Part shown: positions 2,892 to 47,907 of the stretch, one piece after another
Numbering within the stretch: the first letter of the stretch is position 1
Layout of the letters: each line of letters starts with the position of its first letter
IMG/VR virus record: IMGVR_UViG_3300015615_001076
Location: 26,742-90,741 of that record
Strand: one strand, 5' to 3'
Source of the DNA: a virus
Lineage: Duplodnaviria; Heunggongvirae; Uroviricota; Caudoviricetes
DNA length: 64,000 nucleotides
The notes under the pieces: generated by a model
Databases searched by the model: none
What the model saw: the letters and a program-made list of their open reading frames with translations, nothing else
What the model was told of the DNA's origin: nothing
Position numbers and translations under genes: made by a program

Positions 2892-3232
2892 GATTCATCC
2901 CCCTGGTTGAGCGTCCCGACGACATCACAGTGCCGGCGGTCGAGTAAGAGTTGTCGATACCGTTCTTCCTCATCTAGCGTTCGAAGACCGTGCTGTTCCA
3001 GTTGCTCGATGCTTTGATGGACACCCCGACGCATGCCGATCGCCGCGTCTCCAATCTGTGTCCGTGCAGTCTGGGCCTGTTGCAATTGGCCTTCAACCAG
3101 CGCCAAGGCCCGTAGGACCGCCTTGCGGGATTGATTCTCCTGCGGCTGGTCCTCCGGCATCGTCTCGTTCTCAGCGGTTGAGACATCCACATGTTCATCG
3201 TTCGTCTGATCGGCTGTTGTCTGTCCCGTCAT
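2888..3232 (-). CDS. hypothetical acidic protein upstream of the giant helicase gene
   Basis: The stop overlaps the start of 2529..2891 and its start overlaps the end of 3229..9660 (operon-like coupling). Confidence 0.4.
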   Translation of the reverse strand: MTGQTTADQTNDEHVDVSTAENETMPEDQPQENQSRKAVLRALALVEGQLQQAQTARTQIGDAAIGMRRGVHQSIEQLEQHGLRTLDEEERYRQLLLDRRHCDVVGTLNQGDES

Positions 3233-10455: not shown

Positions 10456-13400
10456 TCATCCCGTCTTTCCGAACGTCATCGGTAGCCGACTCTTGATGAC
10501 CGTCTCAAGTGCGGTCATCGGATCCTTTTTCATCGTGTGGTAGTCCGTCATCTTGTCAAGCAGCGTATGTTTCTCCTCCCACCCGATGACGTCTCGGAGT
10601 GCGTCTTGATAATAGGTGCTGGTATACCGTTTTTTGGCCTGGCGCGATGAATAGTTCCTGCCTGCTCCAAACGAGGAATTTTTCTGCTTCTCCTCCCACG
10701 CCAGCTTGACCAACGGTTCGAGATGTCGCTGGATCGGAAGGAGATAGGTCGCCTTCTCAGCGGCGGCATCTCCAGGAAAGACCTTCGCTGGCCTCCCGGC
10801 TTCGTTCAGCGCCCACAAGGCTTCCATCGTCTGCTCCGGGTCCTGATAATCCGGCTTCTCTTTCATCCGTGCACGCAACGCGTGCTGAATCTGATCCGCA
10901 TGCTGTGCAATCAACGAGGCCGGGAACATCCGGAGATGAGACGGCTGGCGGATCTTCGGAATCATTGCGGTCAGCTCATCGGCGTGGCTCACATCCATCG
11001 CGGACGAGAGTCCGCTTGCCAGGTCGTCGATGCGCACAGCGGTCGTACGGTCGTTTCTGTCATACGGTGGAGGCAGTACCCCGATTTCACGAAGCGTGAC
11101 CGAGGCTTTCGGCACATCCACGCTCACCACCCGCCACTGGCTCTCGCCCTTGGTCTTGGTAAAGAGCGGGCGATCATCCCCACCCGACATGGCAAGCGTG
11201 GCCCCCTCATACAACGGCACCCCTTGCGGCGACAGCAGCATCGGCTTGTCGATCGAGAGCATGGCCTTCTGTTCAAAATGCTCATCCTGATGGAGGTCGC
11301 GGGTCATGCGCTCCATGCGCTGTTTGAGTAAGTGCGCGGTCTTGGTCTCTTTGTTCAATAACGCCCCATAGGTCTGGCGGAGCTTCTGCAAGTGACCGAA
11401 CTGGCTGGCGGCTGCAGCCTTCTTAACCGCCCGATACTTCTCTAACTGAGCCTCTTTGTTCTTCGCCAGTTCCGCACGCGCCTGATCCGGATCATCAGCC
11501 ATCATCACGAGAAAGTCATCATGGCTCAGGCTCCCCTCAGCCGCCAAGTTCTCAATCCGATCCGCCCCATGCCAGAGCTGATCCATCCATTCTTTTTTCC
11601 CGGCGATGGTCTGATACCGGTACCCATCGAACGATTTCTTGGCGAGATAGGTATGGACGCGTACCGCCTCCAGCTTGTTCCCTTGGCGAATCCCCCGTCC
11701 GTTCCGCTGTTGCATGCTGGACGGCTCCCAGGGAAGGTCCATATGATGGATGTCGCTCGTCAGTTTTTGCAGGTTGACGCCTTCGCCCATGGTGGCCGTA
11801 TTCCCGATCACGACCCGCAATTTGCCTTGCACATAGTCGTCGGCCACACTATGGCGCTTCGCGCTGTCTTGCGCCACCTGTGCATTGATGATGCCGATTT
11901 GCTCCGCTGGCACACCGGCTTTGATAAGCTTGTCCTTGATCTTTTGATGCACCGCGATCTGATCGGCAAAGATGATCTGCCCACCGTCTTGGAGCATATC
12001 CTTGACCGTCTTGGACACGGCGTCATACTTGGGGCTGTCGAAATCCGTGACGCCTTTGACCCACTCCCCATCGAGTAAGCTCAAGTCCATGGAGGCCTTA
12101 CCCATCTTATCCATGAGGGTAAAGACATGGGCCTCACCCGTCTCTTTCGCCTTGGCGTCGAGGGCCTTGTTGCGAATCGTCGCGTAGACCTGGTGTTGAG
12201 CCTTCGTCATGTCGATGTAATGTTCCTGCACATCCTTCGTGGGGATTTTGAGTCCAACGTCTTCGGCTGTTTTCCGATAGATGTAGCGGCCCATGATGGA
12301 CCGCAGTTCGTTCATGTTCTTGAAGCCCGTGACCACCGACGACATCACAATCTCGCCGTTCGTATCGAGTACCGGCTTGATGGCCGTCTCACAGTAGCGG
12401 TCAATGAAGTCTTCGGCATGTCGGATGCCGCGCTGTGAGAACGCTTCCGGCGCGATATGCGCCAGCATGGAATAGACTTCCAAGGGGGAATTTTTGGTAG
12501 GGGTCGCTGTTAATGCAAACACCCCTCGACCGTTATTGTTCTCACGCACGAAGCGGCATTTATGCTCCATATCCATCGCCCGCTTGGCAAAACCAGATCC
12601 GCCGAGAAACTTGGGTTTTCCGCCGAAGCGACTGCGGGCCTCGTACAGGTTTTTATAGCTATGAAATTCATCTCCTATGATGCAATCCACCCCCAGATCA
12701 TTGAAGTAGATCGCATTGGTCCTCGACCGGAAGTCTTTGTTGGCCATCGCTTGCTGGTACTGTTCGCGGATCTCCCGCACTTCCCGGCGCGTGCCTTCTT
12801 CGAGTTGATCGGCCCGTTGCACCCAGAAATCCGACTCGATGTATTCCCCGCGTTTGATCGGGTCGAGCGTGATTTCGTTGAAGGCCGGTTGCGTCACCAA
12901 CACATAATCAAAGGACTCTTGCGTGAGCTGATGCCACTTCTTGTGGCGTTCCTTCGGATCGTCTGCCGTCGCTTTCAACTTCCCATCTTTCCCTCGGCTG
13001 TGTGTTTCGCCAATGACCAATACCTTCGACCCCGGCATAAATGCCTCGATTTCCGAGACCCAGTTGGCGGTAAGCGATTTCGGCACCACGATAATGGGAC
13101 GCTGAATCTTGCCGTCCTGCTTCAGCGACTTGACGAGGGCAATGGCCATCGGCGTCTTCCCGACCCCAACGTCATAACTGATAATCCCCTTCCCCTCTTC
13201 CTTCGCCCAGCGCAGCGCCGGATGCTGATAGGCATTGAGCGCCCGATCGGGATTCCAGCCCGGTATCTTCACCGGCTGATCGCCATACCGCTTGGGTTTG
13301 TAGCTGTTATAGAGTCGGTTGTAGGTGTCCTCGATCGACGACCGATGGGGAGAGGTCGCCAGCCAATTCTTAAAGTCTTCCTCACGCTCAGGGATACGCT

Positions 13401-15978
13401 TCCATTCATGCTCGGTCATGCGCAGGCGGTTCAGGTAGTCGGTGTAGACGCTATCGAGGTACGCGTTCCCGCCTATGTTCTTGATGGTATAGACGCCATC
13501 GTGAAACGTGACGGCATAGTTTGGCGGGCGTGTGTCGCTCCCATGCTGATGCGCGATCGCGTTGAAATAGTCGGCTAAGACGGTCGTCGGAATCCATCCG
13601 GCGCGTAACGAGACTTCGAACTCCTCCAAGGTTTTTGGCTGAATGGCCTCGTCCAACCACCCGACTTGCTCTTGGAGCTTGTGCTTGAGCGGCCCTTCCG
13701 GAGTGCGCTCCAATGCCGCCGCAACGGCATCGCGCTTGGGGTACAACTCGCCCGACGTGAAATCTTCCCGCAAGACCCATTCTGTGCCGTCCACGTTGAC
13801 CGCATAGCGGTCCGACCCCATCAGGCGTTGGAGGATTTCGTTCCGGACCTCGTCGGTCGTCGCGCCATCCCAGCTCACTGCAAGCTGGTCCACCGTGACG
13901 AATCGCCCGTCCCCGTCCAGCAAGCGCCGCACCACCGCGTCAAAATCTTTGGTATCCAACCCTTGGTGCGTGCTTGAAAAGAGTGTGCCGTCAACCAGAT
14001 CGGACGGCTTCCCGTTGGCGTTGAGCGCCACAATCAGCGGATAGAATCGTGGATCCCGCTCCGCCAGCGCGACCAAGGTCTTATCTTGCAGCGGGAGACC
14101 GAATTCCTTGGCAAACTCCAGCACCTCGTCTTTGATGAGCCGGTCGGACGCCTGTCTGCCTTGCGCCGCTGCATCGGCCAGGTATTTCAGTCGTTGCCCC
14201 AAATCCAGCGCACGACCTTCCTTGCTGGTCGGAGCGTACTGCAGGTCGTCGAGGTCCTCAGCACGGTGCCATCGACGGGGATTCCCTTGGAGCACATATA
14301 AGGTCCCGTTCACCAGCTTGGTGGTGCCGTCTGGTAAGTCCGGATAGGGATTCTTCCTCGACGCGCCATTCAGGCGCTTCACGAAATCAGGCTGCTCGTC
14401 GAAGTGTGCGGCAATCTCCTCAAAGGTCTTGGGACCATGCGTCGATTGATCGAGCGGCGACAGCGCAATCGCCGCCGGCACCCCATCCATTTCACCCGAC
14501 ACATCCAGACCGCCGCGCCAATTGGCTTGGGCGGTGCCGTGGAGATAGCCCCGTCCACTAACCTCCAGAATCTGCCCGTCCAGCCACGGACGGTCCCAAA
14601 CGCCCAACGCTCGCAAATCCACTGGCTCATCGATCACACCGAGTGCTCCGGCGACTGCCTGTGGCCGTTTTCGCAGCACCAAGACATCGGTGACCACGCC
14701 GGTTCCTGAATGCTTGAAGGCCGTATTGGGCATCCGATGCACACCCAGGACTTCGGCTTTTTTCATCACCTGTTCGCGAAACGATCGGCTGGATGGATTG
14801 GTCGAAAGGCCATGGGGCACGACGAGACAGACCACGCCTCCATCTTTGGTCTTATCCAAGGCGGTATCAACAAAATACTCTTCGGCGGTTCCGAGATCGG
14901 GCTTGTCCTGGGCGGCAATCGCGCCCCGCACGCCAAAGGGCACATTGCCGATCACGGCGTCGTATTTGATCGGATCAGCCGTAACGAAATGCTCCAACGC
15001 CAGGTTCACGACTGCATCATCCGGATGCAGAACCGCATTGATCGCTGAGGAAGTCCGGTCCCATTCCACGGCGGTCATTTTAATCCCGGCTGGCTTGGTT
15101 TCCTGGAAAACCCCACTCCCTGCACACGGCTCCAGCACATGCCCCGTAGAGAGTCCGAGCGTGGACAAGATCTTCCACATCGCTGCCGCGACGGCAGGCG
15201 GCGTGTAGTATTCGTTCAGACTGTCCCCGATGCCGCCGTTCCCTGAATAGGCGGCGAGGGTCTTCCGCCAATCCTTCGCAGTTCGATGCAGTGTGCGGAT
15301 TTGCTCTTGTGCGGTGAGCGGTCGGTTGTTCTCTCCGGTCACCCGATCCTTGACCTGATCAATGAGTGCGACGGCCTGCGCATTGGCTTTCTTCCGTGTG
15401 CTCGCGGACCAACCGGATTGTGCCCCAAACGCAGGCAGGTGTGTTTCAATCAAGGCCCAGTCGTCAGCGTAGCTCAAGCCAACGTCAGATTTGTTTGTAG
15501 TGGGTTCCTTCTCATCCAGGTTGGCGGTTGCCCGCACAGAATCTGTGAGATCGAGCAATCCTACAGGTATCTGCATCACATTGCCGTTTGCCAATTTTAC
15601 GGGATATGACGACGGACCGATCTTGGGAGTTTCGATGGGGCCATCGATCACACCGTTCATGAAGGGCTTGCCAATCTTTGCAATGACGGAAGCTCCAACC
15701 GGAAAAACAGAACCCTGTTTATCTGTGCCGTCAGGCACCTCTCTCGTACTTGATTCAGTGACGCGAATCTCTTCCCGTTTTTGTGCCACATCTTGTCGCA
15801 CGGTCGCTCGTTCTGCAGGCGGCGTGTCGAGCATGGTGAACAGCCCGAGCTGTGAGGCGGGTTCGCGCTTGTCCAGATGCTCTGGCACAAAAGTGCCCTG
15901 TTTGGTCGTGTAGGCACTCACCCGTCGGGCTTTAAAGAACAGTCGCAGTCGATCAAGCATGGAGAGATTCCGCCTCAT
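10456..15978 (-). CDS. polyvalent protein (1840 aa): N6-adenine-type DNA methyltransferase fused to SNF2-family helicase
   Basis: N-terminal KDGTFV motif. MTase motif I LEPCAGSGVF and motif IV GNVPFG. SNF2 motifs DEFH, LTATPTKNSPLEVYSMLAHI and QQRNGRGIRQGN. Architecture resembles DarB-like antirestriction proteins. Confidence 0.85.
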   Translation of the reverse strand: MRRNLSMLDRLRLFFKARRVSAYTTKQGTFVPEHLDKREPASQLGLFTMLDTPPAERATVRQDVAQKREEIRVTESSTREVPDGTDKQGSVFPVGASVIAKIGKPFMNGVIDGPIETPKIGPSSYPVKLANGNVMQIPVGLLDLTDSVRATANLDEKEPTTNKSDVGLSYADDWALIETHLPAFGAQSGWSASTRKKANAQAVALIDQVKDRVTGENNRPLTAQEQIRTLHRTAKDWRKTLAAYSGNGGIGDSLNEYYTPPAVAAAMWKILSTLGLSTGHVLEPCAGSGVFQETKPAGIKMTAVEWDRTSSAINAVLHPDDAVVNLALEHFVTADPIKYDAVIGNVPFGVRGAIAAQDKPDLGTAEEYFVDTALDKTKDGGVVCLVVPHGLSTNPSSRSFREQVMKKAEVLGVHRMPNTAFKHSGTGVVTDVLVLRKRPQAVAGALGVIDEPVDLRALGVWDRPWLDGQILEVSGRGYLHGTAQANWRGGLDVSGEMDGVPAAIALSPLDQSTHGPKTFEEIAAHFDEQPDFVKRLNGASRKNPYPDLPDGTTKLVNGTLYVLQGNPRRWHRAEDLDDLQYAPTSKEGRALDLGQRLKYLADAAAQGRQASDRLIKDEVLEFAKEFGLPLQDKTLVALAERDPRFYPLIVALNANGKPSDLVDGTLFSSTHQGLDTKDFDAVVRRLLDGDGRFVTVDQLAVSWDGATTDEVRNEILQRLMGSDRYAVNVDGTEWVLREDFTSGELYPKRDAVAAALERTPEGPLKHKLQEQVGWLDEAIQPKTLEEFEVSLRAGWIPTTVLADYFNAIAHQHGSDTRPPNYAVTFHDGVYTIKNIGGNAYLDSVYTDYLNRLRMTEHEWKRIPEREEDFKNWLATSPHRSSIEDTYNRLYNSYKPKRYGDQPVKIPGWNPDRALNAYQHPALRWAKEEGKGIISYDVGVGKTPMAIALVKSLKQDGKIQRPIIVVPKSLTANWVSEIEAFMPGSKVLVIGETHSRGKDGKLKATADDPKERHKKWHQLTQESFDYVLVTQPAFNEITLDPIKRGEYIESDFWVQRADQLEEGTRREVREIREQYQQAMANKDFRSRTNAIYFNDLGVDCIIGDEFHSYKNLYEARSRFGGKPKFLGGSGFAKRAMDMEHKCRFVRENNNGRGVFALTATPTKNSPLEVYSMLAHIAPEAFSQRGIRHAEDFIDRYCETAIKPVLDTNGEIVMSSVVTGFKNMNELRSIMGRYIYRKTAEDVGLKIPTKDVQEHYIDMTKAQHQVYATIRNKALDAKAKETGEAHVFTLMDKMGKASMDLSLLDGEWVKGVTDFDSPKYDAVSKTVKDMLQDGGQIIFADQIAVHQKIKDKLIKAGVPAEQIGIINAQVAQDSAKRHSVADDYVQGKLRVVIGNTATMGEGVNLQKLTSDIHHMDLPWEPSSMQQRNGRGIRQGNKLEAVRVHTYLAKKSFDGYRYQTIAGKKEWMDQLWHGADRIENLAAEGSLSHDDFLVMMADDPDQARAELAKNKEAQLEKYRAVKKAAAASQFGHLQKLRQTYGALLNKETKTAHLLKQRMERMTRDLHQDEHFEQKAMLSIDKPMLLSPQGVPLYEGATLAMSGGDDRPLFTKTKGESQWRVVSVDVPKASVTLREIGVLPPPYDRNDRTTAVRIDDLASGLSSAMDVSHADELTAMIPKIRQPSHLRMFPASLIAQHADQIQHALRARMKEKPDYQDPEQTMEALWALNEAGRPAKVFPGDAAAEKATYLLPIQRHLEPLVKLAWEEKQKNSSFGAGRNYSSRQAKKRYTSTYYQDALRDVIGWEEKHTLLDKMTDYHTMKKDPMTALETVIKSRLPMTFGKTG

Positions 15979-17314
15979 GGATCGAAGCGGTTAAGCGATC
16001 GAGGTAGGCCTGATGCGTATCGCGTTTGGCGAGCAGCACGCCGCGTTCAGCGGTGCCAAGGTCCGGAGACGTCAGGTCCCAGTCCAGCGTCTCAATGGAT
16101 TTGAGCAGCGCGGTGTGAACCTGATAGGCACGGTGAAGCGGTGTTACGCCCTGGGACGGGCGAGATGGGAGTCCAAGGCTTGGAGGATCTTGTCGTTCCG
16201 GGTTTCCTCCATCTGATCGAACGCGTGCGCGGTCTGTTCCGAGAGGGGCACGGTTCCCGTCGAGGGCTTTGCCAAAGCTGGGCGGTTCGCTGCGCTCCTG
16301 AAGAGCAGCTTGCTCATTTTTTTCAACATCGGTGCTGTACCTCCGCCAGTGCGTGACCCGTGGATCCTGCTTGACCTGATTGTAGGTCTCTTCCGGTCTT
16401 CCGTCAACGGTCTTGGCGATGTAGCTGGGAGGGACAAACCGACCAGACCGGCGAAACCGCTGGACCGCCCGCGCACAGGATTGTTCAATCGGGAGATGGG
16501 CATACAGAATCGAGATTTCATAGCCGAGCATATGAAACCGCTCGACCATCCTTTTGACCTTGCCATCATTCGCCCCGGTGATATCGAGTAAGACATGGTG
16601 GTTGGCCTGCAACGCCTTGGGCAGAAGTTGGCCTTCGGCGATATCGCTGGATTCTTCATGGACCAAGCCGGCATTGCGGCCGTTGTATTCCGGCAGCCGC
16701 TCTTTCACATCATCGGCATTGATCACCGTGAACTCCACGCCCAGTTCTTTGGCCGCCGGCTGAAGTGCCGAGGTCTTCCCGGACGCTGGGGCACCTAACA
16801 GAATGACCGCGTGGGGACGTTGCCCTTCAGAGACAGCCGCTCGCGGATTGAACATGGCCCCCAGAATACTGTCATGGAGCTGCGCCCGTTCGGGATCATA
16901 GGTGCCGTCCGATTGGCGATAGAGATGATGCGTCGATGTCCCGGCTGACACTTCACGCATCGCTTGCTGGATATCTGGTTCCTGCTCGATCGTATGCAGC
17001 CAGGCTTCTAACATCCCTGGCTTCGCTGGCTCGACCTCGGCAACCGGGGGCCGTTCGGTTTGCAGGGGGTCGTCGTGATGAGCAGATTGTTCTTGGTCTA
17101 CCGTCTTCTTCGGGTCTTTCGCCTGTGCGAACTCTTGCTGCGCCTTGGTGCGTGAGTCCTCATGCTCCTGGACCATCGCCGTCTTACCGGACTTGGACCG
17201 GCGCTGATAGGTCTTCACATGCGATTTCACGAAGGTCCCGTCCTTACGTCGATAGCCCGACACATAGTCCTTCCCAAACACCATGCGGAGCATCGACCGG
17301 GCCATCTTCATCAT
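15953..17314 (-). CDS. Zeta-toxin-like P-loop kinase domain protein with polyvalent-type N-terminal motif
   Basis: N-terminal 'GYRRKDGTFVKSHV' motif. Walker A LLGAPASGKTS, then 'DITGAN' and 'LYAHLPIEQSCARAVQRF' segments typical of the Zeta-toxin / AAA_33 kinase fold. Confidence 0.6.
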   Translation of the reverse strand: MMKMARSMLRMVFGKDYVSGYRRKDGTFVKSHVKTYQRRSKSGKTAMVQEHEDSRTKAQQEFAQAKDPKKTVDQEQSAHHDDPLQTERPPVAEVEPAKPGMLEAWLHTIEQEPDIQQAMREVSAGTSTHHLYRQSDGTYDPERAQLHDSILGAMFNPRAAVSEGQRPHAVILLGAPASGKTSALQPAAKELGVEFTVINADDVKERLPEYNGRNAGLVHEESSDIAEGQLLPKALQANHHVLLDITGANDGKVKRMVERFHMLGYEISILYAHLPIEQSCARAVQRFRRSGRFVPPSYIAKTVDGRPEETYNQVKQDPRVTHWRRYSTDVEKNEQAALQERSEPPSFGKALDGNRAPLGTDRARVRSDGGNPERQDPPSLGLPSRPSQGVTPLHRAYQVHTALLKSIETLDWDLTSPDLGTAERGVLLAKRDTHQAYLDRLTASIHEAESLHA

Positions 17315-29709: not shown

Positions 29710-31554
29710 TTACCCAACGACCACAATCTCATCTGATCGGATGCCGCTCGTCCGACCCACGGCCTTCCGGAACATGGTCGACCGATCCCGGTCCGCGTCG
29801 TCCTTCACGGCCTCATACCCGCCCGCCATCGCTTGATCGGCTTTTGCGGGATCACGGTTGCCTTGATCGGTCACCGCCGATTCTGGTTGGCGACCTTGCG
29901 TGTCACCATCTGGCTGTTTCCGATCTCCCGATTCTTGCACCCTCGCCTCCGGTTCCGGCTTCTCAGGCGTCTGACCAGCCCCACCCAGCGCGGCTTGTTG
30001 CGCTTGGCTATACACGCCGACTAAGGACGGATTAAGCGGCGCATTCCCCCAGGACTCGGTTGTCGGTTCGTCGCCCTCTGCCACGCGCAATTCATTCACC
30101 GATTTGGTGAGTTTCGCATACTCCCGCTTCCATTCGAGATCCAAGGGACGCAGGCCATAGAACCGAAACACATAGTCCGGCGCCACGCGTGACAACAGAT
30201 AGTCCGTCATCCCGTTTTCGAGGAACGACATCAACGGTTCCAGCCCAGTATCTCGCGCATCCGCTAACCGTTCCGCCGTATCGGATCCAGAGAGCGACGA
30301 CCGTCCTGCGTGAAATGATTCGGCATAGATTTCCGTGGGGTCCATGCCATAGACGGCACAGATGATCGAGGTGAGCAGAATCATCCACTTGGCGAAATAC
30401 ATGTCCGTAAACTCGTTGTCGAACTTCGTATAGGTCGCTGAGGATTCTTTGCTGTCGCTCACCATCACCGGTAACGACCAGGCGTTATTGACGCCGCGCA
30501 CCATGGCGTTCCATTGTTGCCTAAAACCGTTCAGCTGGTTTTGATCGAATGAGCCAAAGATCGTGAGCAGCCCCTTCGGAATCGCATTGGCGTCGAATCC
30601 ACGTAGGTTATACGTCAGTGCGTTCAGATAGCCGGTCACGACCTTGACGACCATCTCCGGTGGCGCGTACCCATAGCCGCCAAAGCTCACATCGGATCGT
30701 GGATTCATCGTGAGATAGGCCATCTCGTCCGCGTTATATTTGGTGACCGGCATGCCATCGACGATCTGCACCGCGATGATCTCATCGTCTCCCTGATACC
30801 CTTCTTCCGACGCGAGATAGACCGTGCTGGCATCGACCGCATGATAGCCAAACAGCGACTTGCCGTTGTTGGTCGGCACCGTTTCAATTGCCCACGCATC
30901 GAGCGTGAGAATATCGCGCAGGCTCTTGGTCATGAACGTGGTGAGCGTATCGTGCTTCAGCTGTTGCCGTTTGCGCGGCGTGCGTTCCCATCCGGAGTGC
31001 AGCACGAACTGTTCGAGCGCGGTTTCTTCCGGGCCTTTGCGAGGCTTCACCGTCCCCGTTTCGTCGTTCCGGCGCACTTCAAACCCTAAGTCACGATTCC
31101 GTTCGACCGTGCGGAGAAAGCGCCCGATGACGCGCTGTCGCCGAAGAATGATCGCGTTGATCAGCGGCGTCTGTTCGACCATCAAGCGGAGGTGGAAGGA
31201 GCCAAACTGCGACGGCCGCATTTTGTAGCCGCCTGGGGCTGTGCCGAACATGCCGCGTTCATCGACAAACAACGACATGGCTTCGCCGTGTTTTCTCTCA
31301 CCCTGAATTGGATAGATCCCGGTACCCTGCCAAAGTCCGCCTTTCGCCATCGTGCCTTGGTCGTAGGCAGACTGGATATGTTCGACGAGGGAACGAATGG
31401 CCGATTGATCGGGAAAGTCTGACGTGGTGGGCTGAAACTGGGCTTCGAGTTCCGTGCGGGCCTGGACGCGCTCAGCGACCGGCGCATCAGGAGACGAGGC
31501 GACACGGGCTAATTCAGGAGCATTCATAGCACTCCTACGACGTGAGTAAGACAA
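29710..31554 (-). CDS. putative portal protein
   Basis: 614-aa protein directly downstream of the large terminase and upstream of MuF. The SPP1-like order (terminase, portal, MuF) and the size fit a portal. No motif verified. Confidence 0.55.
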   Translation of the reverse strand: MSYSRRRSAMNAPELARVASSPDAPVAERVQARTELEAQFQPTTSDFPDQSAIRSLVEHIQSAYDQGTMAKGGLWQGTGIYPIQGERKHGEAMSLFVDERGMFGTAPGGYKMRPSQFGSFHLRLMVEQTPLINAIILRRQRVIGRFLRTVERNRDLGFEVRRNDETGTVKPRKGPEETALEQFVLHSGWERTPRKRQQLKHDTLTTFMTKSLRDILTLDAWAIETVPTNNGKSLFGYHAVDASTVYLASEEGYQGDDEIIAVQIVDGMPVTKYNADEMAYLTMNPRSDVSFGGYGYAPPEMVVKVVTGYLNALTYNLRGFDANAIPKGLLTIFGSFDQNQLNGFRQQWNAMVRGVNNAWSLPVMVSDSKESSATYTKFDNEFTDMYFAKWMILLTSIICAVYGMDPTEIYAESFHAGRSSLSGSDTAERLADARDTGLEPLMSFLENGMTDYLLSRVAPDYVFRFYGLRPLDLEWKREYAKLTKSVNELRVAEGDEPTTESWGNAPLNPSLVGVYSQAQQAALGGAGQTPEKPEPEARVQESGDRKQPDGDTQGRQPESAVTDQGNRDPAKADQAMAGGYEAVKDDADRDRSTMFRKAVGRTSGIRSDEIVVVG

Positions 31555-31830: not shown

Positions 31831-34800
31831 TCATTCCTCGGCCCGCTCCATGTATAACGCACACGCTGGCATTCCAGCCTGCACACTGAACCGTCTTGCC
31901 TGACACGTGCTCTTGTCGGCATCGAAATGCTGACACTTCCCGCAGGTCCCTGCGAGGGCGTTCGTCTTCGGCAGCGTCAAGATCTTCGCCTGAATCTGTG
32001 CCGCATCCCCGGCCTGCGTGAGCGATAAGTCCGGCTTCTTCTCCTTCAGCTCTTTGACCGTTGGAACCGTTGATCCGTGTTGGGGCACCCACAATTCCGC
32101 CGTGACCTGCCGGCGCTGATTCGCCATGAGGCAATAGAGGAACGCATGGAGGAAATGCGGGTCCACCCCGATCTCTTCCCACACCATCGTGAATTCTCCG
32201 GTATCCACGGTCTTCTTGGCTTCGGTATCCCGGCGCATCACCGGCAGCTTGCGTCTGGCAACCGACCGGAGATGGAAGAACAAGCCTTGCTCCCCGGTCT
32301 CCGGATTGCCGAGACAGATATGGCTCTGCCGTTCCATGCCCTTCGCTCTGACTTTTTGGACGAGTCCTTCCGGCGTCGGACAAGCCACCTGCCGCAACAC
32401 CCACTGCATCAACGCGAATTCGATGGCCTTGTACCGATCCAGCATGACGTGATGTTCAAACTTACTCTCCGGCTTGGCGCGATAGAGGGCTTTCAGTTGC
32501 TCATCGCGATCACTCCACCGGAGCATATGGACATTCTCGGTGTAGTACGCAAGGAACACGCGGCGCTTAAACTGCTTCGCAAAGCGAACCGCTTCGTTGT
32601 AGCTGGGAAGGGCATCGATCACACAACAGTCGACGTCATAGCGCACCATCAATTCATAGAGTCGATCGAAGGGGGATTCACCTTGCACAATTTCCAGATG
32701 CGCGAGCTTCAACTTGCCATCGCCGGGATAGCCGATCACGACATGGTTTTCGCCGCCGCGTTGGTCCACCCCCATGACACAATGGGTGCCGTCGGTGAGC
32801 CAGTGCAGCTCGTGGTCGACACAGGCCAGCGCCACATCGAGCGGCACAAGAATGCTCTCCGGATCGACATAGGGCAGGCCCAACGTGGAGTTGTAGAATT
32901 CTTGGCGGTCCGTCGCATGCAGCCATTTGTCCCAAATCCGGCGCGGCGTCATGACCGGAGAAATCAATTGCGGAATGTGAAAGCCGATGACACTGTGCTC
33001 TGGCGTCCGCTTCCGGTATTGGCCGTCTTGGAGATCAAGCAGGCGCTTGTCACAGACCGGGCAGCGCCAAAAGTACTCGCCCTTGGATTCTCCGACGCAG
33101 TCAGGCCAATGATCGGTCAAGACCACGCCGTCGTGACACCGGCAGCGGGCATGCCAGGTCCGTTGGTCGGATCGCTGAAAGTAGTGGTGGATATCGGAGT
33201 TATGGACGAGCGCACCACTCTCCGCGAGGACAAACCATGGCGTGCCATCAACTTCAATGTCGTAGGCGAGATCTTCCCCGTCAGGCCTCACGCTACGCAC
33301 TTCCGTAACCGCCAATGCATTCATGATGGGCTGGCTCAGTTGTGAGGTAGGATTGTACGAAACGGTAAAAACGGAGAGCCTTTGTGTGATGACCCTCCCC
33401 CTCGCGTTCGTCCTCGTGCTGGATCTAGCGGCACGGCAGGAGAGCATAGGGCACTTTCCAAGTCGGCGACACAGAAACATCACTTGCGAGGCCAAGATGT
33501 TGCTAGAGGTAAAAAACTCCCATTCGCGCCCAGACGGATGTGACGGCGTAAAGGCCTTGCGTCGGTGTCCATCGCCATCCAGCAAGCCATCCAATAGCGA
33601 GGACAATTGACGGGGCGATCCGCCTAGGATGACATCTGGAATGCACTTCTGGCTGGAACCTGTGCCGCAGGCCGCAAAGACAGTTTCGAGATCTGGGCGA
33701 TGTCGCAGCGTGACACGCACGCCTGCCCTGTCCTCAGTGTACGGCAACCCTTGTGCGTCAGCCCAGGCTTTTACTTTCGTGCGCAGCGGTTTCCCGGTAT
33801 TCTGCCAGAAGTGCCAGGCGTGAAGATCACGTGTGCCTTCTGCGATCCACGCTCCCACTGCATAGCAAGTCAGAAGATCGAGGGGGGCGTCGATCGTGGT
33901 GTCGTGCCACCGAGTGTTCGAGACGTTAGGAAATTCCGTCAATGTGAGCACACCAGAAAGCGGCGGGCCTCCGTGTGCTTTTGGTATGCGAGGAAGGTCG
34001 GCTATAGGAGTCCATTTGATCTGCTTCTTGACGTGCTGACGCGACGGACTCTGGGCGAACCGGTGACTGCCCGTACAGCGAATCGTCGTCCCGCCGCTCA
34101 AGCGCACGGTGACCATCGGGCGAAGTCCACGACAGATCACACCGTTGATAGTCCGCCAGCGTGGACGATTGCCACCGGCACGGTTGTAGGACAAAACGTC
34201 GAATTCCTTCCAGGTGTCAGCGAGGTCACGGATGGCAACCGGGAGCACGCGCCCCGTGATGCGATGTCGCACGACAATAGCGGTCTCGCCTGCAAAGCAA
34301 TCGGGATACCCAGCCGTAGAGACTTTACAATTGATCGGATAGTCGGAATGGCTGACCCGCTCCGAGGCGCGTTCGATGTCCGTCATTTTCATGCGCCGGA
34401 CCTCATCAAAGAAGATGCCGCGCATCGGAATGGCTTCCGTACTCGTTTTCCCGCCCATGTAACTAAAGAAGATCGTACTCGCCCCTAACGACCGCACCCG
34501 CTTCCGGTCCTCTTTTTTGACCTTGAGCCCGTTGATCCGTTGATCGGCCTCCCCGGCTAGAATAGCCAGACTTGGATTCGAGGCCACCATGGGTTGAAAC
34601 CGATCCGACGAAAAGATGTCGGCCATTTCCCGGTCTGGCAGGAAGTACCCGAATTTATCCGCCCAGAACTTCAACGCCGCAAAGATCAGCCCGCCCATAA
34701 TCGTGACGCTTTTCCCAACTTGGGCGGCGGACATGAGGACGAAATCAAACGAGTCCTGGGTACGGTCACACGCAAACGCCTGGTAGGGCTCAATCAGGTA

Positions 34801-35052
34801 GCGATGCCGTGCGAAGTCGATGGGCTTCTTGTCGACGAGGTACGGCCGGGAGGACACGAAGTCGAACAGCGTGTCGGGCAGATTGGTCACCGCCGGCGGC
34901 GGAGCCAGCACCAGCCCGCTATTCGCTCGTTGCTCCAACCGGTCCGCCAGCCCCCACAAGAGGGAGCGCAGTGCGGAGGTCCCGCCCAAAGGCGGCAAAG
35001 TCTTCGGGTTTGGTAAGGTAGCGTGCAACGATGCTCTCCACAATTTGCACAA
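31831..35052 (-). CDS. terminase large subunit interrupted by an intein
   Basis: Walker A SAAQVGKSV and Walker B GIFFDEV. C-terminal nuclease/zinc-ribbon region (CRCHDG...CPVCDKR). An intein (CFAGETAIVV ... LVHN|S) is inserted after the ATPase core. The start may instead be the GTG at 34911 just after the terS stop. Confidence 0.85.
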   Translation of the reverse strand: MCKLWRASLHATLPNPKTLPPLGGTSALRSLLWGLADRLEQRANSGLVLAPPPAVTNLPDTLFDFVSSRPYLVDKKPIDFARHRYLIEPYQAFACDRTQDSFDFVLMSAAQVGKSVTIMGGLIFAALKFWADKFGYFLPDREMADIFSSDRFQPMVASNPSLAILAGEADQRINGLKVKKEDRKRVRSLGASTIFFSYMGGKTSTEAIPMRGIFFDEVRRMKMTDIERASERVSHSDYPINCKVSTAGYPDCFAGETAIVVRHRITGRVLPVAIRDLADTWKEFDVLSYNRAGGNRPRWRTINGVICRGLRPMVTVRLSGGTTIRCTGSHRFAQSPSRQHVKKQIKWTPIADLPRIPKAHGGPPLSGVLTLTEFPNVSNTRWHDTTIDAPLDLLTCYAVGAWIAEGTRDLHAWHFWQNTGKPLRTKVKAWADAQGLPYTEDRAGVRVTLRHRPDLETVFAACGTGSSQKCIPDVILGGSPRQLSSLLDGLLDGDGHRRKAFTPSHPSGREWEFFTSSNILASQVMFLCRRLGKCPMLSCRAARSSTRTNARGRVITQRLSVFTVSYNPTSQLSQPIMNALAVTEVRSVRPDGEDLAYDIEVDGTPWFVLAESGALVHNSDIHHYFQRSDQRTWHARCRCHDGVVLTDHWPDCVGESKGEYFWRCPVCDKRLLDLQDGQYRKRTPEHSVIGFHIPQLISPVMTPRRIWDKWLHATDRQEFYNSTLGLPYVDPESILVPLDVALACVDHELHWLTDGTHCVMGVDQRGGENHVVIGYPGDGKLKLAHLEIVQGESPFDRLYELMVRYDVDCCVIDALPSYNEAVRFAKQFKRRVFLAYYTENVHMLRWSDRDEQLKALYRAKPESKFEHHVMLDRYKAIEFALMQWVLRQVACPTPEGLVQKVRAKGMERQSHICLGNPETGEQGLFFHLRSVARRKLPVMRRDTEAKKTVDTGEFTMVWEEIGVDPHFLHAFLYCLMANQRRQVTAELWVPQHGSTVPTVKELKEKKPDLSLTQAGDAAQIQAKILTLPKTNALAGTCGKCQHFDADKSTCQARRFSVQAGMPACALYMERAEE
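33199..34299 (-). mobile_element. intein with LAGLIDADG homing-endonuclease domain inside terL
   Basis: An N-terminal Cys (CFAGE...) opens a Hint block A. Two LAGLIDADG-like motifs (LLTCYAVGAWIAEGT ; LSSLLDGLLDGDGH). The C-terminus is ...GALVHN followed by a +1 Ser. About 367 aa. Confidence 0.75.
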
Positions 35053-45016: not shown

Positions 45017-45304
45017 TTAGCCCATGCCATCCAGCGATGGGCCAAGCACAACCACCTGATCCTTTCGCCCAACCAGGTCGTCTTTGTTCAATTCCATGAC
45101 CGCCTTGACCGGCATGAGTTTGTAGCCGGAGAGATAGATCCAGACAGGCACATTGGAGAGGGCCAGCAGCTGCGTGGCCAAGTCATGAGTGGTCAATATC
45201 TCATCGCCGTTCATGTGATCCATCAGCCCTCCTGTCAATTCAACGCTCCGTCGGTTAACTGCAACAGTCCTCGCTCTGGAATCACGCCCATATCGCACAG
45301 CCAT
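45017..45304 (-). CDS. small hypothetical protein downstream of the ATPase
   Basis: ORF overlapping the ATPase stop. Confidence 0.3.
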   Translation of the reverse strand: MAVRYGRDSRARTVAVNRRSVELTGGLMDHMNGDEILTTHDLATQLLALSNVPVWIYLSGYKLMPVKAVMELNKDDLVGRKDQVVVLGPSLDGMG

Positions 45305-46878
45305 TTCAGATGGCTGTTGAATCGTCCCCCGTTCGGATGAATCCCCAACGCTGCCGCCAGTTCCTCTCGACTCAGACCGTGGTCAAGGGTGGATAACACC
45401 TCCACGATGCGCCGCTGTCCCTCTTCAGGAAGGGTGGTCTTCAGCGCCGCCAGCCCGGTATCCAGCGTAGTCGCGAGATTGGCGCCGGCTGGCAACAATC
45501 GCCACTGATCATCCAGATAGCCAGCGTCCCGCAGCCCCTTGAGATCTGCATTGAATCGTCCACCATTGGGGTGGATGGCTATCCACCGAGCGACGGCTTC
45601 TCGGCTCAACGGAATCTCACGTGCCCACAGCATCTTGACGGTATCGAGAATCCGCTGTTGGCCGCTGGTGAGACCGGCGGATGGAGACGGATCACGCTTC
45701 TGCGTGTCCCGTGGGATAGGCTTTGGATGTATGAGAGGTTGAGCGTTTGTCCTTTGTCTGCTTATATTATTAGCAACTGTGGACAAACCATCCCGTAAGT
45801 CCTTGACTGCCAACGCGATACTCTCTGACAGTGAGGTGCCGCGACTGATAAGATCCTCAAGAGTCTGGGTCTGATAATCGGTAATGGCTGGCACTTCCTT
45901 GACCGACTCGACCGGTTTCTTGGTCAGCTCCGTCTTCAGCCTGGCAATCTCTGCCCGTAAGATTTTGGGGTCGTCTGCTTTAGCTTTTTCCATCGTAGCG
46001 ACCATGCGAGATTCGATGTCCTGCACATCCAACGGAGCCGGGTCCCGTCGTACACGATGTTGCCCGGCTTTGGGGGTCGCTGACGCATCGAACGTTCGTT
46101 TCTTGGCAATCGTGATCTTCTTGAATTGTCGCAGCCATTGGGGAGACCAGAGGTAGCACGTGCCCACAGGAAGACCGGGCAGAGCATCCACGAGATTGAC
46201 ATCACCGCCTTCGTAGGTCAGCCATTCCTTGAGCGCTTTGCGTTCCGGCACACCGTTCAGCTGAAACGCCATGATGCACTCGGCTTGCGTGAGCACCTCT
46301 TTGTTGACCGACTGTGGTCGTTGGGTCAGCATGGAGACGCCGATGCCGTAGTTCCGCCCTAACCGAATGATTTCCTCGTAGACATGCACCATCCGCGTTT
46401 CGTCCTTGCCGACGAACTGCGGGACAATGAGTTGGCACTCTTCGATAATGAGATGCAGGGGGGACGGATCGGCTTCGCCCTTTTTGCGCTGCCAGAGTCG
46501 CGCTCCGAAATCTGCGGCAAACCGTTTTCGATCTGAGTAATTGAACTGGCTCAGATCGAGAATGACGCTGCGCCGACTGTCGACGACGACATCCGCCACC
46601 ACCTCGCCAGCCGTCGCGAGCAAGGGGAGGTCTTGCCGCAGCCCACCAAACACCGGAATGTCATAGCCTTTCGCTTGGCCATCCTGGGCAATGCGCAGCC
46701 CAAACCAATTGCCCACGGTATCGAGGATGACGACCTGGATAGAGGACTCAAGCAGCTCTTCGGCGAGCTTGCCCGAGCCATGCGTCTTTCCACTGCCCTT
46801 TCGTCCGATCCAGGCAAACGTTTGCGTGCAGGCATCGACAGGCAGGCGCATATCGTCAGACAGATGCAGGCTCTTCAT
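45235..46878 (-). CDS. HerA/FtsK-like P-loop ATPase with C-terminal tandem winged-helix repeats
   Basis: Walker A GRKGSGKT, Walker B HLIIEECQ, 'GIGVSMLTQRPQSV' Arg/Gln sensor region. Two C-terminal copies of 'IHPNGGRFN..LK.L.D.G'. Confidence 0.6.
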   Translation of the reverse strand: MKSLHLSDDMRLPVDACTQTFAWIGRKGSGKTHGSGKLAEELLESSIQVVILDTVGNWFGLRIAQDGQAKGYDIPVFGGLRQDLPLLATAGEVVADVVVDSRRSVILDLSQFNYSDRKRFAADFGARLWQRKKGEADPSPLHLIIEECQLIVPQFVGKDETRMVHVYEEIIRLGRNYGIGVSMLTQRPQSVNKEVLTQAECIMAFQLNGVPERKALKEWLTYEGGDVNLVDALPGLPVGTCYLWSPQWLRQFKKITIAKKRTFDASATPKAGQHRVRRDPAPLDVQDIESRMVATMEKAKADDPKILRAEIARLKTELTKKPVESVKEVPAITDYQTQTLEDLISRGTSLSESIALAVKDLRDGLSTVANNISRQRTNAQPLIHPKPIPRDTQKRDPSPSAGLTSGQQRILDTVKMLWAREIPLSREAVARWIAIHPNGGRFNADLKGLRDAGYLDDQWRLLPAGANLATTLDTGLAALKTTLPEEGQRRIVEVLSTLDHGLSREELAAALGIHPNGGRFNSHLKWLCDMGVIPERGLLQLTDGALN

Positions 46879-46896: not shown

Positions 46897-47907
46897 CTAC
46901 GGTCGTGCCCCTTCCAACGCCTCTTGGATTTGCTGGCTCAACTGATTCACCGCTCCAGGAGCATGGTTCGTGAAGATCACGCGCCCGTTGCCGCCCATCT
47001 GTTTCAAGGTGTCAAAGTATTGGGTCATCAACACGACGCTCATGACTTCCTTCGCCTCGGTGCCGGGCATCGCCTTTTGAAACTCCTCGACCGACTCACG
47101 GAGCCCGTCGATAATGGCCTTCCGTTGGCCGGCTAACCCTTCCCCGCTCAAAATGTTGCTTTGCTTGTCGGCCTCGGCTCGCTTGACGGCAAGAATTCGC
47201 TCAGCCTCGCCACGCTCCGTCGCCGCCATGCGCTCACGTTGGGCCGCGTTGATTTCATTCATCGCCTGTTTGACGCGAGTATCTGGTTCGATGTCCGTGA
47301 CGAGCACCCGATGAATCGTGTAGCCAAACGACGACATGGCTTCGGTCAGCTCCTCCTTCACGGCCTGGGCAATCTCATCCTTCTGCGCAAACGCTTCGTC
47401 CAGCTTCATCTTCGGCACTCGGCCTCGAATCACATCGAAGACGTAGGACTTCAATTGCTCCTCGTCGTCGGCCAACATGTAATAGGCTTCGTAAATCTTG
47501 TCTGGCATGACGGCGTACTGTACGGCCGCGTGAAGATCGACGAACACATCATCCTGCGTTTTGGTCTCGACCCTGAGGCCCAGCGCCGAGATCCGCAGAT
47601 CGGCTTCCCACACCCGTTGCTCGATCAGCGGGATCTTGAACCGGAAACCAGGCCGAGCAATCCGATGAAACTTTCCAAACCGCTCGATAATCTCGGCACT
47701 CTGTTGCTGCACGGTGAAAACCGTCCCCGCCACCAGCATGCCGAGCAGGATAACCCCCACGCTGCCGAAGAAGAGGAGCATCCACAGATCGTCGGAGGTG
47801 TGCAGCGAGACCGCTGCCTCGCTGGCCGTCTTGATCGCAGTCATCGCCTCGTCATACCGTACATACGCTTCACCCAATTCATCCCGGACCACTCTCGACC
47901 ATTCCAT
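46897..47907 (-). CDS. SPFH/band-7 (stomatin/HflC-like) membrane protein
   Basis: N-terminal transmembrane helix (LLFFGSVGVILLGMLVAG). SPFH core 'IIERFGKFHRIARPGFRFKIPLIEQ...' followed by a coiled-coil region (AAQRERMAATERGEAERILAVKRAEADKQ). Confidence 0.75.
   Translation of the reverse strand: MEWSRVVRDELGEAYVRYDEAMTAIKTASEAAVSLHTSDDLWMLLFFGSVGVILLGMLVAGTVFTVQQQSAEIIERFGKFHRIARPGFRFKIPLIEQRVWEADLRISALGLRVETKTQDDVFVDLHAAVQYAVMPDKIYEAYYMLADDEEQLKSYVFDVIRGRVPKMKLDEAFAQKDEIAQAVKEELTEAMSSFGYTIHRVLVTDIEPDTRVKQAMNEINAAQRERMAATERGEAERILAVKRAEADKQSNILSGEGLAGQRKAIIDGLRESVEEFQKAMPGTEAKEVMSVVLMTQYFDTLKQMGGNGRVIFTNHAPGAVNQLSQQIQEALEGARP

What the first reader, a model, noticed from the sequence alone, without database searches (positions are those of the whole stretch)
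31831..35052. Large terminase subunit split by an intein with LAGLIDADG homing endonuclease
The N-extein ends ...STAGYPD. The intein opens with Cys (CFAGETAIVV), contains two LAGLIDADG-like motifs and ends ...LVHN before a +1 Ser. The C-extein continues the terminase nuclease and zinc-ribbon region. This is a mobile element within a mobile element and a useful marker for lineage tracing.
Basis: seen in the sequence. Interest (0 to 1): 0.55.

Follow-up and report, generated by a model that had tools for sequence, protein, structure and literature searches.

The report
Intein inside a phage terminase gene
The phage DNA-packaging enzyme gene in this window is interrupted by a self-splicing protein element (an intein) that carries its own homing nuclease; it is real, but it is a new example of a common and well-understood kind of element.

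Summary
The observation and the interpretation both hold. On the minus strand, ORF 31831..35052 encodes a gpA-type large terminase (TerL). It is interrupted in frame by a 367-aa insertion at window 33199..34299.

- **Clean insertion.** With those residues removed, the protein matches TerL profiles and the TerLs of cultured phages in one unbroken stretch. Among 72 homologues, 70 are intein-free and align straight across the junction (...STAGYP-[D/N]-[S/T]DI...).
- **Canonical class-1 intein.** It has Cys1, block B T76-x-x-H79, block F D347, terminal H366-N367 and a +1 Ser.
- **Nuclease domain.** A double-motif LAGLIDADG domain is nested inside, with acidic residues E154 and D243.
- **Family evidence.** Single-sequence family hits are weak. 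A 20-member profile of its relatives hits PI-PkoII, VMA inteins, I-DmoI and PI-SceI.
- **Structure.** An AlphaFold model (pLDDT 89) superposes on nuclease-bearing inteins (TliVMA, TM 0.71).
- **Insertion site.** It lies five residues after the invariant ST motif, which I infer to be the ATPase C-motif.
- **Relatives.** They include full inteins, mini-inteins and empty sites at the same position.

Inteins in terminase genes are well known, so this is a new member of a known kind. Splicing and nuclease activity are inferred, not shown. Interest is low.

The parts
31831..35052 (-). Maximal ORF of the intein-containing large terminase (TerL, gpA type). The real start is probably TTG at 34938 or GTG at 34911.
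   Evidence: ORF; PF05876 GpA_ATPase, phrog_675 TerL at 2.8e-76 after removing the intein; database copy P0001 is 1035 aa and starts at ORF residue 39; upstream gene stops at 34919.
34300..34938 (-). N-extein, the N-terminal part of the ATPase domain. It holds Walker A AAQVGKS (34708..34728), Walker B GIFFDEV (34399..34419) and the invariant ST of the STAG motif (34309..34320, inferred C-motif/sensor I). It ends ...YPD.
   Evidence: coordinates; invariant D178, E179, S207, T208, A209 in P0001 numbering. The C-motif assignment is inferred from the spacing after Walker B, by analogy with HK97 TerL E154/T186 (PMC9410871).
33199..34299 (-). Intein, 367 aa (ORF residues 252-618), from Cys1 to Asn367.
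   Evidence: Clean 367-column insertion in alignment A1. TIGR01443 intein_Cterm scores 17.5, above its cut-off of 15.6. Intein_splicing is hit by 20 of 20 relatives. Family profile against PDB inteins. AF2 model with pLDDT 89.1 matches nuclease-bearing inteins 7qsu, 1vde, 1dq3 and 2cw7.
33940..34299 (-). N-terminal splicing (Hint) lobe: block A CFAGETAIVV (34270..34299) and block B CTGSHRF with T76 and H79 (34057..34077).
   Evidence: C1, T76, H79 invariant; TIGR01445, residues 252-332; alignment to DnaX and DnaB mini-inteins.
33400..33885 (-). Nested LAGLIDADG homing-endonuclease domain. Motif 1 is LLTCYAVGAWIAEGT (33832..33876, E154); motif 2 is LSSLLDGLLDGDGH (33565..33606, D243).
   Evidence: G149, G155, D243 invariant; E154 at least 90% conserved; profile hits I-DmoI at 2e-9 and the PI-PkoII endonuclease region at 1.4e-10; LAGLIDADG_3 in 13 of 20 relatives; helices 142-154 and 229-243; I-DmoI and I-Tsp061I matches.
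33199..33315 (-). C-terminal splicing lobe: block F AYDIEVDGTPWFVL (33226..33267, D347) and block G GALVHN (33199..33216, H366-N367).
   Evidence: D347, H366 and N367 invariant.
31831..33198 (-). C-extein. It begins with the +1 Ser codon (33196..33198), then holds the end of the ATPase domain with its zinc ribbon CRCH...CPVCDK (33046..33144), the nuclease domain, and a C-terminal Cys cluster (31861..31947). The stop codon is at 31831..31833.
   Evidence: Pfam and PHROG coverage of the spliced protein; invariant C599, C601, C626, C629 in P0001 numbering; coordinates.

Best explanation
A canonical class-1 intein with a nested double-motif LAGLIDADG homing endonuclease sits in frame in the ATPase domain of a gpA-type large terminase. 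The terminase belongs to a phage or prophage.

**Position.** The intein lies five residues after the invariant ST of the STAG motif, which I take to be the ATPase C-motif/sensor I.

**Splicing (inferred).** The gene is translated as one precursor of about 1035-1073 aa. The intein then excises itself in four steps:
1. An N-S acyl shift at Asp(-1)-Cys1, assisted by block B T76/H79.
2. Attack by the +1 Ser hydroxyl, giving a branched ester.
3. Cyclisation of Asn367, assisted by H366 and block F D347, which releases the intein.
4. An O-N shift that joins ...STAGYPD to SDIHHYF..., giving an active TerL of about 670-700 aa.

**Homing (inferred).** The freed intein acts as a monomeric LAGLIDADG nuclease. 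It would cut intein-free alleles at the ...GGxTAyCCCrAy|wCsGAyATC... junction during co-infection or prophage encounter. Recombinational repair would then copy the intein in.

**What is shown and what is not.** Shown: the insertion, its fold family, conservation of the catalytic residues, the empty and occupied alleles, and the mini-intein derivatives. Inferred: that splicing and cleavage actually occur.
For: - **Clean in-frame insertion.** 70 of the 72 homologues found (the list includes the window's own protein, P0001) are 590-708 aa and align across the junction with no gap except the 367 intein columns. Only P0001 and P0002 carry the insertion.
- **Spliced protein matches TerL in one stretch.** It matches phrog_675 in one stretch, residues 73-614 to profile 34-550, at 258 bits against 236.5 bits in two stretches. 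It matches PF05876 in one stretch at 49.3 bits against 40.1. It aligns as one tblastn piece over 85-93% of its length with annotated TerLs of Thermus, Yersinia, Bordetella and Pseudomonas phages.
- **Splicing residues conserved.** C1, T76, H79, D347, H366 and N367 are invariant in 20 relatives. The +1 residue is Ser.
- **Endonuclease residues conserved.** G149, G155 and D243 are invariant and E154 is at least 90% conserved.
- **Profile hits to solved structures.** The family profile hits PI-PkoII at 2.8e-22, the TliVMA intein at 2.8e-20, I-DmoI at about 2e-9 and PI-SceI at 3e-6.
- **Fold match.** The AF2 model (pLDDT 89.1, pTM 0.89) matches whole nuclease-bearing inteins: 7qsu at E 4e-17 with TM 0.71, and also PI-SceI, PI-PfuI and PI-PkoII.
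- **All stages of the intein life cycle at this site.** Full inteins occur in P0002, P0073, P0074 and P0075. Mini-inteins lacking the nuclease occur in P0079, P0080, P0088 and P0095. Empty sites are numerous, including P0003 at 82% extein identity.
- **Sporadic distribution.** Intein identity exceeds extein identity for the distant carriers (P0074: 46% against 37%). Closer TerLs at 45-82% identity lack the intein. This fits horizontal homing with losses.
- **Composition and selection.** GC3 of the intein is lower than in the exteins in both carriers (0.63 against 0.72-0.74 in the window; 0.57 against 0.80-0.81 in P0002). Comparing the window copy with P0002, the intein ORF is intact with pN 0.34 against saturated pS 0.77.
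Against: - **Weak single-sequence hits.** Intein_splicing scores 23.3 against a cut-off of 35.8, TIGR01445 scores 21.5 against 24.5, and LAGLIDADG_3 scores 14.7 against 22.5. The intein is therefore divergent, and the assignment leans on the family profile and the predicted fold.
- **No usable model from the sequence alone.** The single-sequence AF2 model was useless, with pLDDT 36.
- **Block F histidine replaced.** The block F His seen in most relatives (HNF/HNY) is replaced by P/W (TPWF) in this subgroup.
- **No experimental evidence** for splicing or DNA cleavage.
- **Divergent copies.** The two close copies are only 54% identical. Recent homing is not shown, and the nuclease could already be inactive.
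- **Word-index search found nothing.** The search with the intein alone returned nothing, not even the protein itself. I attribute this to the tool, because the exhaustive search found 157 relatives.
Confidence: 0.93

Rival explanations
1. The element is a splicing-competent intein whose LAGLIDADG domain has lost nuclease activity. It would be a fixed, no longer mobile intein on its way to becoming a mini-intein.
For: Mini-inteins without the nuclease domain exist at the same site (P0079, P0080, P0088, P0095). The two full copies closest to each other are only 54% identical, less than their exteins at 67%. The single-sequence LAGLIDADG_3 score is below the cut-off.
Against: The acidic residues E154 and D243 and the glycines of both motifs are conserved across 20 relatives. 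The nuclease domain is intact, models at high confidence and has no stops. The sporadic distribution fits continuing mobility.
Confidence: 0.3
2. The element is a dead insertion. The intein no longer splices, and the terminase is a non-functional remnant in a decaying prophage.
For: The window lies on a 719-kb contig, so it may be a prophage. Nothing shows that the phage is active. The block F His is missing.
Against: The 1073-codon frame is uninterrupted. Every essential splicing residue is present and invariant in the family. The exteins keep all invariant TerL residues. The same intein subgroup with the same block F variant is maintained in at least five diverged terminases.
Confidence: 0.05
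3. The element is not an intein. It would be either a bacterial intein-like (BIL)/Hint domain or a free-standing homing-endonuclease gene fused in frame.
For: Weak Hint-module hits appear in 2 of 20 relatives.
Against: The element has the intein-specific terminal His-Asn followed by a +1 Ser, Cys1, and the nuclease nested between the two Hint lobes, exactly as in PI-SceI and the VMA inteins. Its boundaries coincide to the residue with the gap in intein-free homologues.
Confidence: 0.02

Closest known systems
Terminase large-subunit inteins of actinobacteriophages (PhagesDB surveys; bioRxiv 10.1101/2025.01.02.630785)
   Same: [quoted passage not shown] That survey found 293 of 784 phage inteins in TerL and 712 with canonical LAGLIDADG architecture. 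It also describes sporadic distribution, mini-intein decay and movement between sites.
   Different: Here the host is a gpA-type (PF05876) terminase of an uncultured, roughly 57% GC phage or prophage, not an actinophage TerL. No intein relative was found by tblastn in 50,697 deposited phage genomes. The insertion site after the STAG motif was not compared with the sites in that survey.
Nuclease-bearing archaeal and yeast inteins with solved structures: TliVMA/PhoVMA (7qsu, 7qss, 7qst), PI-SceI (1vde), PI-PfuI (1dq3), PI-PkoII (2cw7)
   Same: The overall architecture is the same: a Hint splicing domain split by a double-motif LAGLIDADG domain. Foldseek gives E 4e-17 to 3e-11 and TM up to 0.71. 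The family profile gives E 2.8e-22 to 3e-6.
   Different: Sequence identity is only 11-16%. The host proteins differ (V-ATPase, ribonucleotide reductase, DNA polymerase). This intein is smaller, at 367 aa against 454-537 for PI-SceI, PI-PfuI and PI-PkoII. I did not examine which extra domains of those proteins it lacks.
Lambda gpA-type large terminase (Pfam GpA_ATPase PF05876 / GpA_nuclease PF20454; PHROG 675)
   Same: The exteins match PF05876 above its cut-off (49.3 against 25.6) and phrog_675 at 2.8e-76 over nearly the whole profile. They carry Walker A, Walker B, the zinc ribbon and the nuclease region.
   Different: The nuclease Pfam hit is below its cut-off (12.7 against 22.5). Identity to cultured-phage TerLs is only about 30%. 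There is an extra C-terminal Cys cluster, and the gene is interrupted by the intein.

Membership tests
Intein (class 1, canonical) | In-frame insertion whose removal restores a contiguous, conserved host protein | tested here: met
   Alignment A1 shows a 367-column gap in 16 of 18 sequences. The spliced protein gives a single-stretch PHROG/Pfam match and a single tblastn piece against phage TerLs.
Intein (class 1, canonical) | N-terminal nucleophile (Cys/Ser) at position 1 and the block B TxxH motif | tested here: met
   C1, T76 and H79 are invariant in 20 relatives.
Intein (class 1, canonical) | C-terminal His-Asn (block G) followed by a +1 Cys/Ser/Thr on the C-extein | tested here: met
   The sequence ends ...LVHN|S. 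H366 and N367 are invariant. TIGR01443 scores 17.5 against a cut-off of 15.6.
Intein (class 1, canonical) | Hint fold of the splicing domain | tested here: met
   The AF2 model (pLDDT 89.1) matches mini-inteins (DnaB, DnaE, RecA, RadA) and full inteins. This rests on a predicted, not a solved, structure.
Intein (class 1, canonical) | Curated family score thresholds (Pfam PF14890, TIGR01445) | tested here: not met
   PF14890 scores 23.3 against 35.8 and TIGR01445 scores 21.5 against 24.5 for this single sequence. All 20 relatives hit PF14890 at E<=0.01, the best at 4.8e-24. The shortfall reflects divergence, not absence.
Intein (class 1, canonical) | Actual protein splicing (excision plus ligation) | not testable with these tools
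   Requires expression with western blot or mass spectrometry of the junction peptide.
LAGLIDADG homing endonuclease (double-motif, monomeric) | Two LAGLIDADG helices, each ending in a catalytic acidic residue | tested here: met
   Motifs lie at intein residues 142-156 (E154) and 232-245 (D243). They form helices 142-154 and 229-243 in the model.
LAGLIDADG homing endonuclease (double-motif, monomeric) | Sequence or fold similarity to characterised LAGLIDADG enzymes | tested here: met
   The family profile hits I-DmoI at about 2e-9 and the PI-PkoII endonuclease region at 1.4e-10. Foldseek hits I-Tsp061I and I-DmoI at E about 8e-5. Pfam LAGLIDADG_3 for the single sequence is below its cut-off, at 14.7 against 22.5.
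LAGLIDADG homing endonuclease (double-motif, monomeric) | Site-specific cleavage of the intein-free allele | not testable with these tools
   Requires an in vitro cleavage assay on the empty junction, for example the P0003 allele.
gpA-type terminase large subunit | GpA_ATPase domain with Walker A and Walker B, followed by a nuclease domain, next to a portal gene | tested here: met
   PF05876 scores 49.3 against a cut-off of 25.6 and phrog_675 gives 2.8e-76. The portal gene lies at 29710..31554. The same gene order is seen in L001 and L002. The Pfam nuclease hit alone is sub-threshold.

The most novel reading that the evidence does not exclude
This intein belongs to a previously uncatalogued clade of phage inteins with no relative in deposited phage genomes. 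The clade has moved repeatedly between targets:
- three closely spaced sites in gpA-type terminases (after STAGxPx, within ST|CGLP, and in the zinc-ribbon CG|C);
- the catalytic GD|C site of transglutaminase-like proteins.

If so, it would be a natural series for studying how a LAGLIDADG intein retargets ("extein switching").
Probability: 0.35. Interest if true: 0.4.

Novelty: new member of a known kind. Interest (0 to 1): 0.2.

Why it matters
- **Annotation.** The gene should be recorded as TerL plus an intein, not as an oversized or fused protein. The mature terminase is about 670-700 aa.
- **Phage biology.** It is a further case of a selfish element sitting at a catalytic motif of an essential packaging ATPase. 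That placement protects the element from deletion.
- **Possible material for retargeting studies.** The family found here includes full inteins, mini-inteins, empty alleles, a double-intein terminase, and relatives at neighbouring sites and in another host protein. It could be used to study intein homing and retargeting, and could yield a new splicing domain or LAGLIDADG scaffold.
- **No new concept.** Terminase inteins are the commonest phage inteins.

Tried and rejected
- **Word-index homologue search with the intein alone.** It returned nothing, not even the parent protein. I treat this as a tool limitation, because the exhaustive HMMER search found 157 relatives.
- **Single-sequence AlphaFold model.** pLDDT was 36, so it was unusable. 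It was replaced by the alignment-based model.
- **phmmer of the spliced TerL against PDB sequences.** No hit. The site could therefore not be mapped on a solved gpA-type structure, and the C-motif assignment rests on spacing and invariance only.
- **tblastn of the intein against 50,697 phage genomes.** No match.
- **Genome-contig scan.** The alignment was too divergent to give search patterns. The single-protein scan found no relative, so the host organism remains unidentified.
- **Look-up of the window's own protein.** Not on record.
- **Antisense ORFs inside the gene (32077..33345 + and 33700..34488 +).** I checked whether they encode an antisense nuclease of the kind reported in some actinophage inteins. 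There were no Pfam hits, so I consider them spurious ORFs of GC-rich DNA.
- **dN/dS between the two closest intein copies.** It could not be computed properly because synonymous sites are saturated. Only pN against pS is reported.
Full report
**What is in the sequence**

The finding's coordinates (31831..35052) are exactly one open reading frame on the minus strand. It is 1073 codons long, counted from the first in-frame TTG. The quoted strings are all present. The N-terminal part ends ...KVSTAGYPD. The next residue is Cys (CFAGETAIVV...). 367 residues later the insertion ends ...ESGALVHN and is followed by Ser (SDIHHYF...).

The insertion is ORF residues 252-618, which is window 33199..34299 on the minus strand. 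The true start of the gene is probably internal to the ORF. The database copy of this protein (P0001, 100% identical, 1035 aa, on a 719,510-bp JGI contig) starts at the TTG at 34938. The upstream gene stops at 34919, and a GTG at 34911 is also possible.

**The host protein is a gpA-type large terminase and the insertion is clean**

- The unspliced protein hits Pfam GpA_ATPase (PF05876, 40.1 bits) and PHROG 675 "terminase large subunit" (236.5 bits), each in two stretches.
- After deleting residues 252-618, both become single stretches with higher scores. PF05876 gives 49.3 bits over spliced residues 88-303, matching profile positions 12-232 of 247. phrog_675 gives 258 bits (E 2.8e-76) over residues 73-614, matching profile positions 34-550 of 576.
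- A search of 5.8 billion proteins gave 72 hits, one of which is the window's own protein, P0001. Seventy of them are 590-708 aa. Only P0001 and P0002 (1032 aa) carry the insertion.
- In the alignment of 18 of them, the 16 short proteins run straight across the junction (...STAGYP-[D/N/G/E]-[S/T/C/A]-DI...). The only large gap is the 367 intein columns.
- The closest relative, P0003 (82% extein identity), has an empty site, STAGYPN|TDIDHYF.
- The spliced protein aligns as one tblastn piece over 85-93% of its length with annotated TerLs of cultured phages at about 30% identity. These include Thermus phage Lalka8, Yersinia phage fHe-Yen8-01, Bordetella phage PHB04 and Pseudomonas phage Dolphis.
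- A portal gene follows at 29710..31554. The same terminase-portal order is seen in the loci of P0002 and P0003.

That test fails to refute the finding.

**The insertion is an intein with a nested LAGLIDADG endonuclease**

On its own the sequence is divergent:
- Intein_splicing scores 23.3 bits against a cut-off of 35.8.
- TIGR01445 scores 21.5 against 24.5.
- LAGLIDADG_3 scores 14.7 against 22.5.
- Only TIGR01443 (intein C-terminus) passes, at 17.5 against 15.6.
- phmmer against PDB gives only marginal hits to DnaX and DnaB mini-inteins.

An exhaustive HMMER search of 1.84 billion representative proteins found 157 relatives, 24 of them at E<=1e-10. I cut out 19 full-length relatives and aligned them with the window's intein. 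The invariant residues are exactly the catalytic ones:
- C1 (block A).
- T76 and H79 (block B, TxxH).
- D347 (block F).
- H366-N367 (block G).
- G149, G155 and D243 of the two LAGLIDADG motifs, with E154 at least 90% conserved.

Further support comes from profile and fold comparison:
- All 20 members hit Pfam Intein_splicing, and 13 hit LAGLIDADG_3.
- The family profile hits PI-PkoII (2.8e-22), the TliVMA intein (2.8e-20), many mini-inteins, I-DmoI (about 2e-9) and PI-SceI (3e-6).
- The single-sequence AlphaFold model was useless, with pLDDT 36.
- With the 20-sequence alignment the model reached pLDDT 89.1 and pTM 0.89. The two LAGLIDADG motifs form helices 142-154 and 229-243.
- Foldseek against the PDB returns whole nuclease-bearing inteins first: TliVMA 7qsu at E 4e-17 with TM 0.71, then PI-SceI, PhoVMA, PI-PfuI and PI-PkoII. 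Mini-inteins and free LAGLIDADG enzymes follow.

**Where it sits in the terminase**

- Walker A (AAQVGKS, 34708..34728) and Walker B (GIFFDEV, 34399..34419) lie in the N-extein.
- The invariant S-T of STAG lies 29 residues after the Walker B Glu. In HK97 TerL the C-motif/sensor I Thr186 lies 32 residues after Walker B Glu154 (PMC9410871).
- I therefore infer that the intein sits five residues after the ATPase C-motif. I could not test this on a structure. A conserved catalytic site is typical for inteins.
- The C-extein first completes the ATPase domain, including the zinc ribbon at 33046..33144, and then carries the nuclease domain.

**Mechanism (inferred from the residues)**

Standard class-1 splicing:
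1. N-S acyl shift at Asp(-1)-Cys1.
2. Transesterification to the +1 Ser.
3. Cyclisation of Asn367.
4. O-N shift, giving mature TerL with the junction ...STAGYPD-SDIHHYF....

The free intein would act as a monomeric double-motif LAGLIDADG nuclease on intein-free alleles. It would then be copied in by recombinational repair.

**Evidence bearing on mobility**

- **All stages of the homing cycle occur at this one site.** These are full inteins (P0002, P0073, P0074, P0075), mini-inteins of 147-179 aa that have lost the nuclease (P0079, P0080, P0088; P0095 by inspection of its sequence), and many empty sites.
- **Presence is sporadic.** TerLs at 45-82% extein identity lack the intein, while TerLs at 37-38% carry it. 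For those distant carriers the intein is as similar as, or more similar than, the extein (P0074: 46% against 37%).
- **The intein is rare in this clade.** None of 29 IMG/VR relatives has it.
- **Composition differs.** GC3 of the intein is below that of the exteins in both close carriers: 0.63 against 0.72-0.74 in the window, and 0.57 against 0.80-0.81 in P0002.
- **The ORF is under constraint.** Comparing the window copy with P0002, pN is 0.34 against a saturated pS of 0.77.

This fits horizontal homing plus loss. It also means the intein is a poor simple lineage marker.

**Rivals**

- **A splicing-competent intein with a dead nuclease cannot be excluded** (about 0.3 within the intein reading). 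The two closest copies are only 54% identical, and mini-inteins exist at the site.
- **A non-splicing remnant in a decaying prophage is unlikely** (about 0.05), given the intact frame and intact catalytic residues.
- **A BIL/Hint domain or a fused free-standing nuclease is rejected.** The His-Asn/+1 Ser ending, the nested architecture and the exact boundaries all argue against it.
- **Antisense ORFs within the gene have no family hits**.

**Comparison with what is known, and novelty**

- Inteins in phage large terminases are common. In a recent survey of actinobacteriophages, 293 of 784 inteins were in TerL and 712 had the canonical LAGLIDADG architecture. Mini-intein decay, multiple insertion sites and extein switching were also described (bioRxiv 10.1101/2025.01.02.630785).
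- What is particular here is the host, a gpA-type TerL of an uncultured phage or prophage, together with the divergence of the intein. No relative was found in 50,697 deposited phage genomes.
- Relatives of this intein occur at two other nearby sites in gpA-type terminases (ST|CGLP, and the zinc-ribbon CG|C). One terminase has two inteins (P0073). Relatives also occur at the GD|C site of other proteins, one of which hits Pfam Transglut_core.
- That pattern is a lead for site and extein switching, but I did not test it phylogenetically.

**Verdict**

- Observation: confirmed.
- Interpretation: supported.
- Novelty: new member of a known kind.
- Interest: about 0.2.

Noticed in passing
P0073 (1298 aa), not in the window: A related gpA-type terminase carries two inteins of this family. 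One is at the same STAGYPG|TDI site. The second is 20 residues downstream in the zinc ribbon (VKCG|C...HN|CSDG).
   Followed up: partly
P0076, P0082, P0077, P0081, P0083: Relatives of the intein occupy two other sites in gpA-type terminases. One is three residues upstream (MST|CGLPE, where Cys replaces the Ala of STAG). The other is in the zinc ribbon (CG|C). This suggests site switching within the same gene.
   Followed up: partly
P0085-P0206: More distant relatives of the intein sit at a GD|C...HN|C[D/E]D site in proteins of about 500-650 aa. One of them (P0093) hits Pfam Transglut_core, so the intein appears to interrupt the catalytic Cys motif of transglutaminase-like proteins.
   Followed up: partly
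window 33226..33267 (-), intein residues 345-358: In this subgroup block F reads DGTPWF, where most relatives have xxxHNF/HNY. The usual block F histidine is replaced in all inteins at the STAGxPx site.
   Followed up: no
window 3229..9660 (-) and 10456..15978 (-): Two giant ORFs of 2143 and 1840 aa have helicase, DNA-methyltransferase and DarB-like antirestriction PHROG hits (phrog_11801, phrog_10089, phrog_62). They are probably injected anti-restriction proteins of the phage.
   Followed up: no
window 45235..46878 (-): A 547-aa ORF gives a partial hit to a different terminase-large-subunit PHROG (phrog_2666, residues 14-226 to profile 317-503, E 2e-19). It is a second terminase-like or nuclease-domain protein about 10 kb from the TerL.
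   Followed up: no
window 15953..17314 (-), 54099..57580 (-), 46897..47907 (-): There is a Zeta-toxin/AAA_33 domain protein, an SbcC-like plus metallophosphoesterase (SbcD-like) pair, and an SPFH/Band 7 protein. No tRNA was found in the whole window.
   Followed up: no
whole window / source contig: The database copy of the protein lies on a 719,510-bp JGI contig. All 64 kb examined looks phage-like, whereas related viral contigs are about 58-100 kb. Whether the source is a bacterial chromosome with a prophage or something larger was not resolved. The genome-contig scan found no relative.
   Followed up: partly
window 31861..31947 (-), C-terminus of TerL: A C-terminal Cys cluster (TCGKCQHF...C...PAC) is conserved among the closer TerL homologues and absent from more distant ones. 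It may be an extra metal-binding tail of unknown role.
   Followed up: no
(tool behaviour): The word-index protein search with the 367-aa intein returned no hit at E<=1e-3. Yet P0001 and P0002 in that collection contain it, and the exhaustive search found 157 relatives.
   Followed up: no
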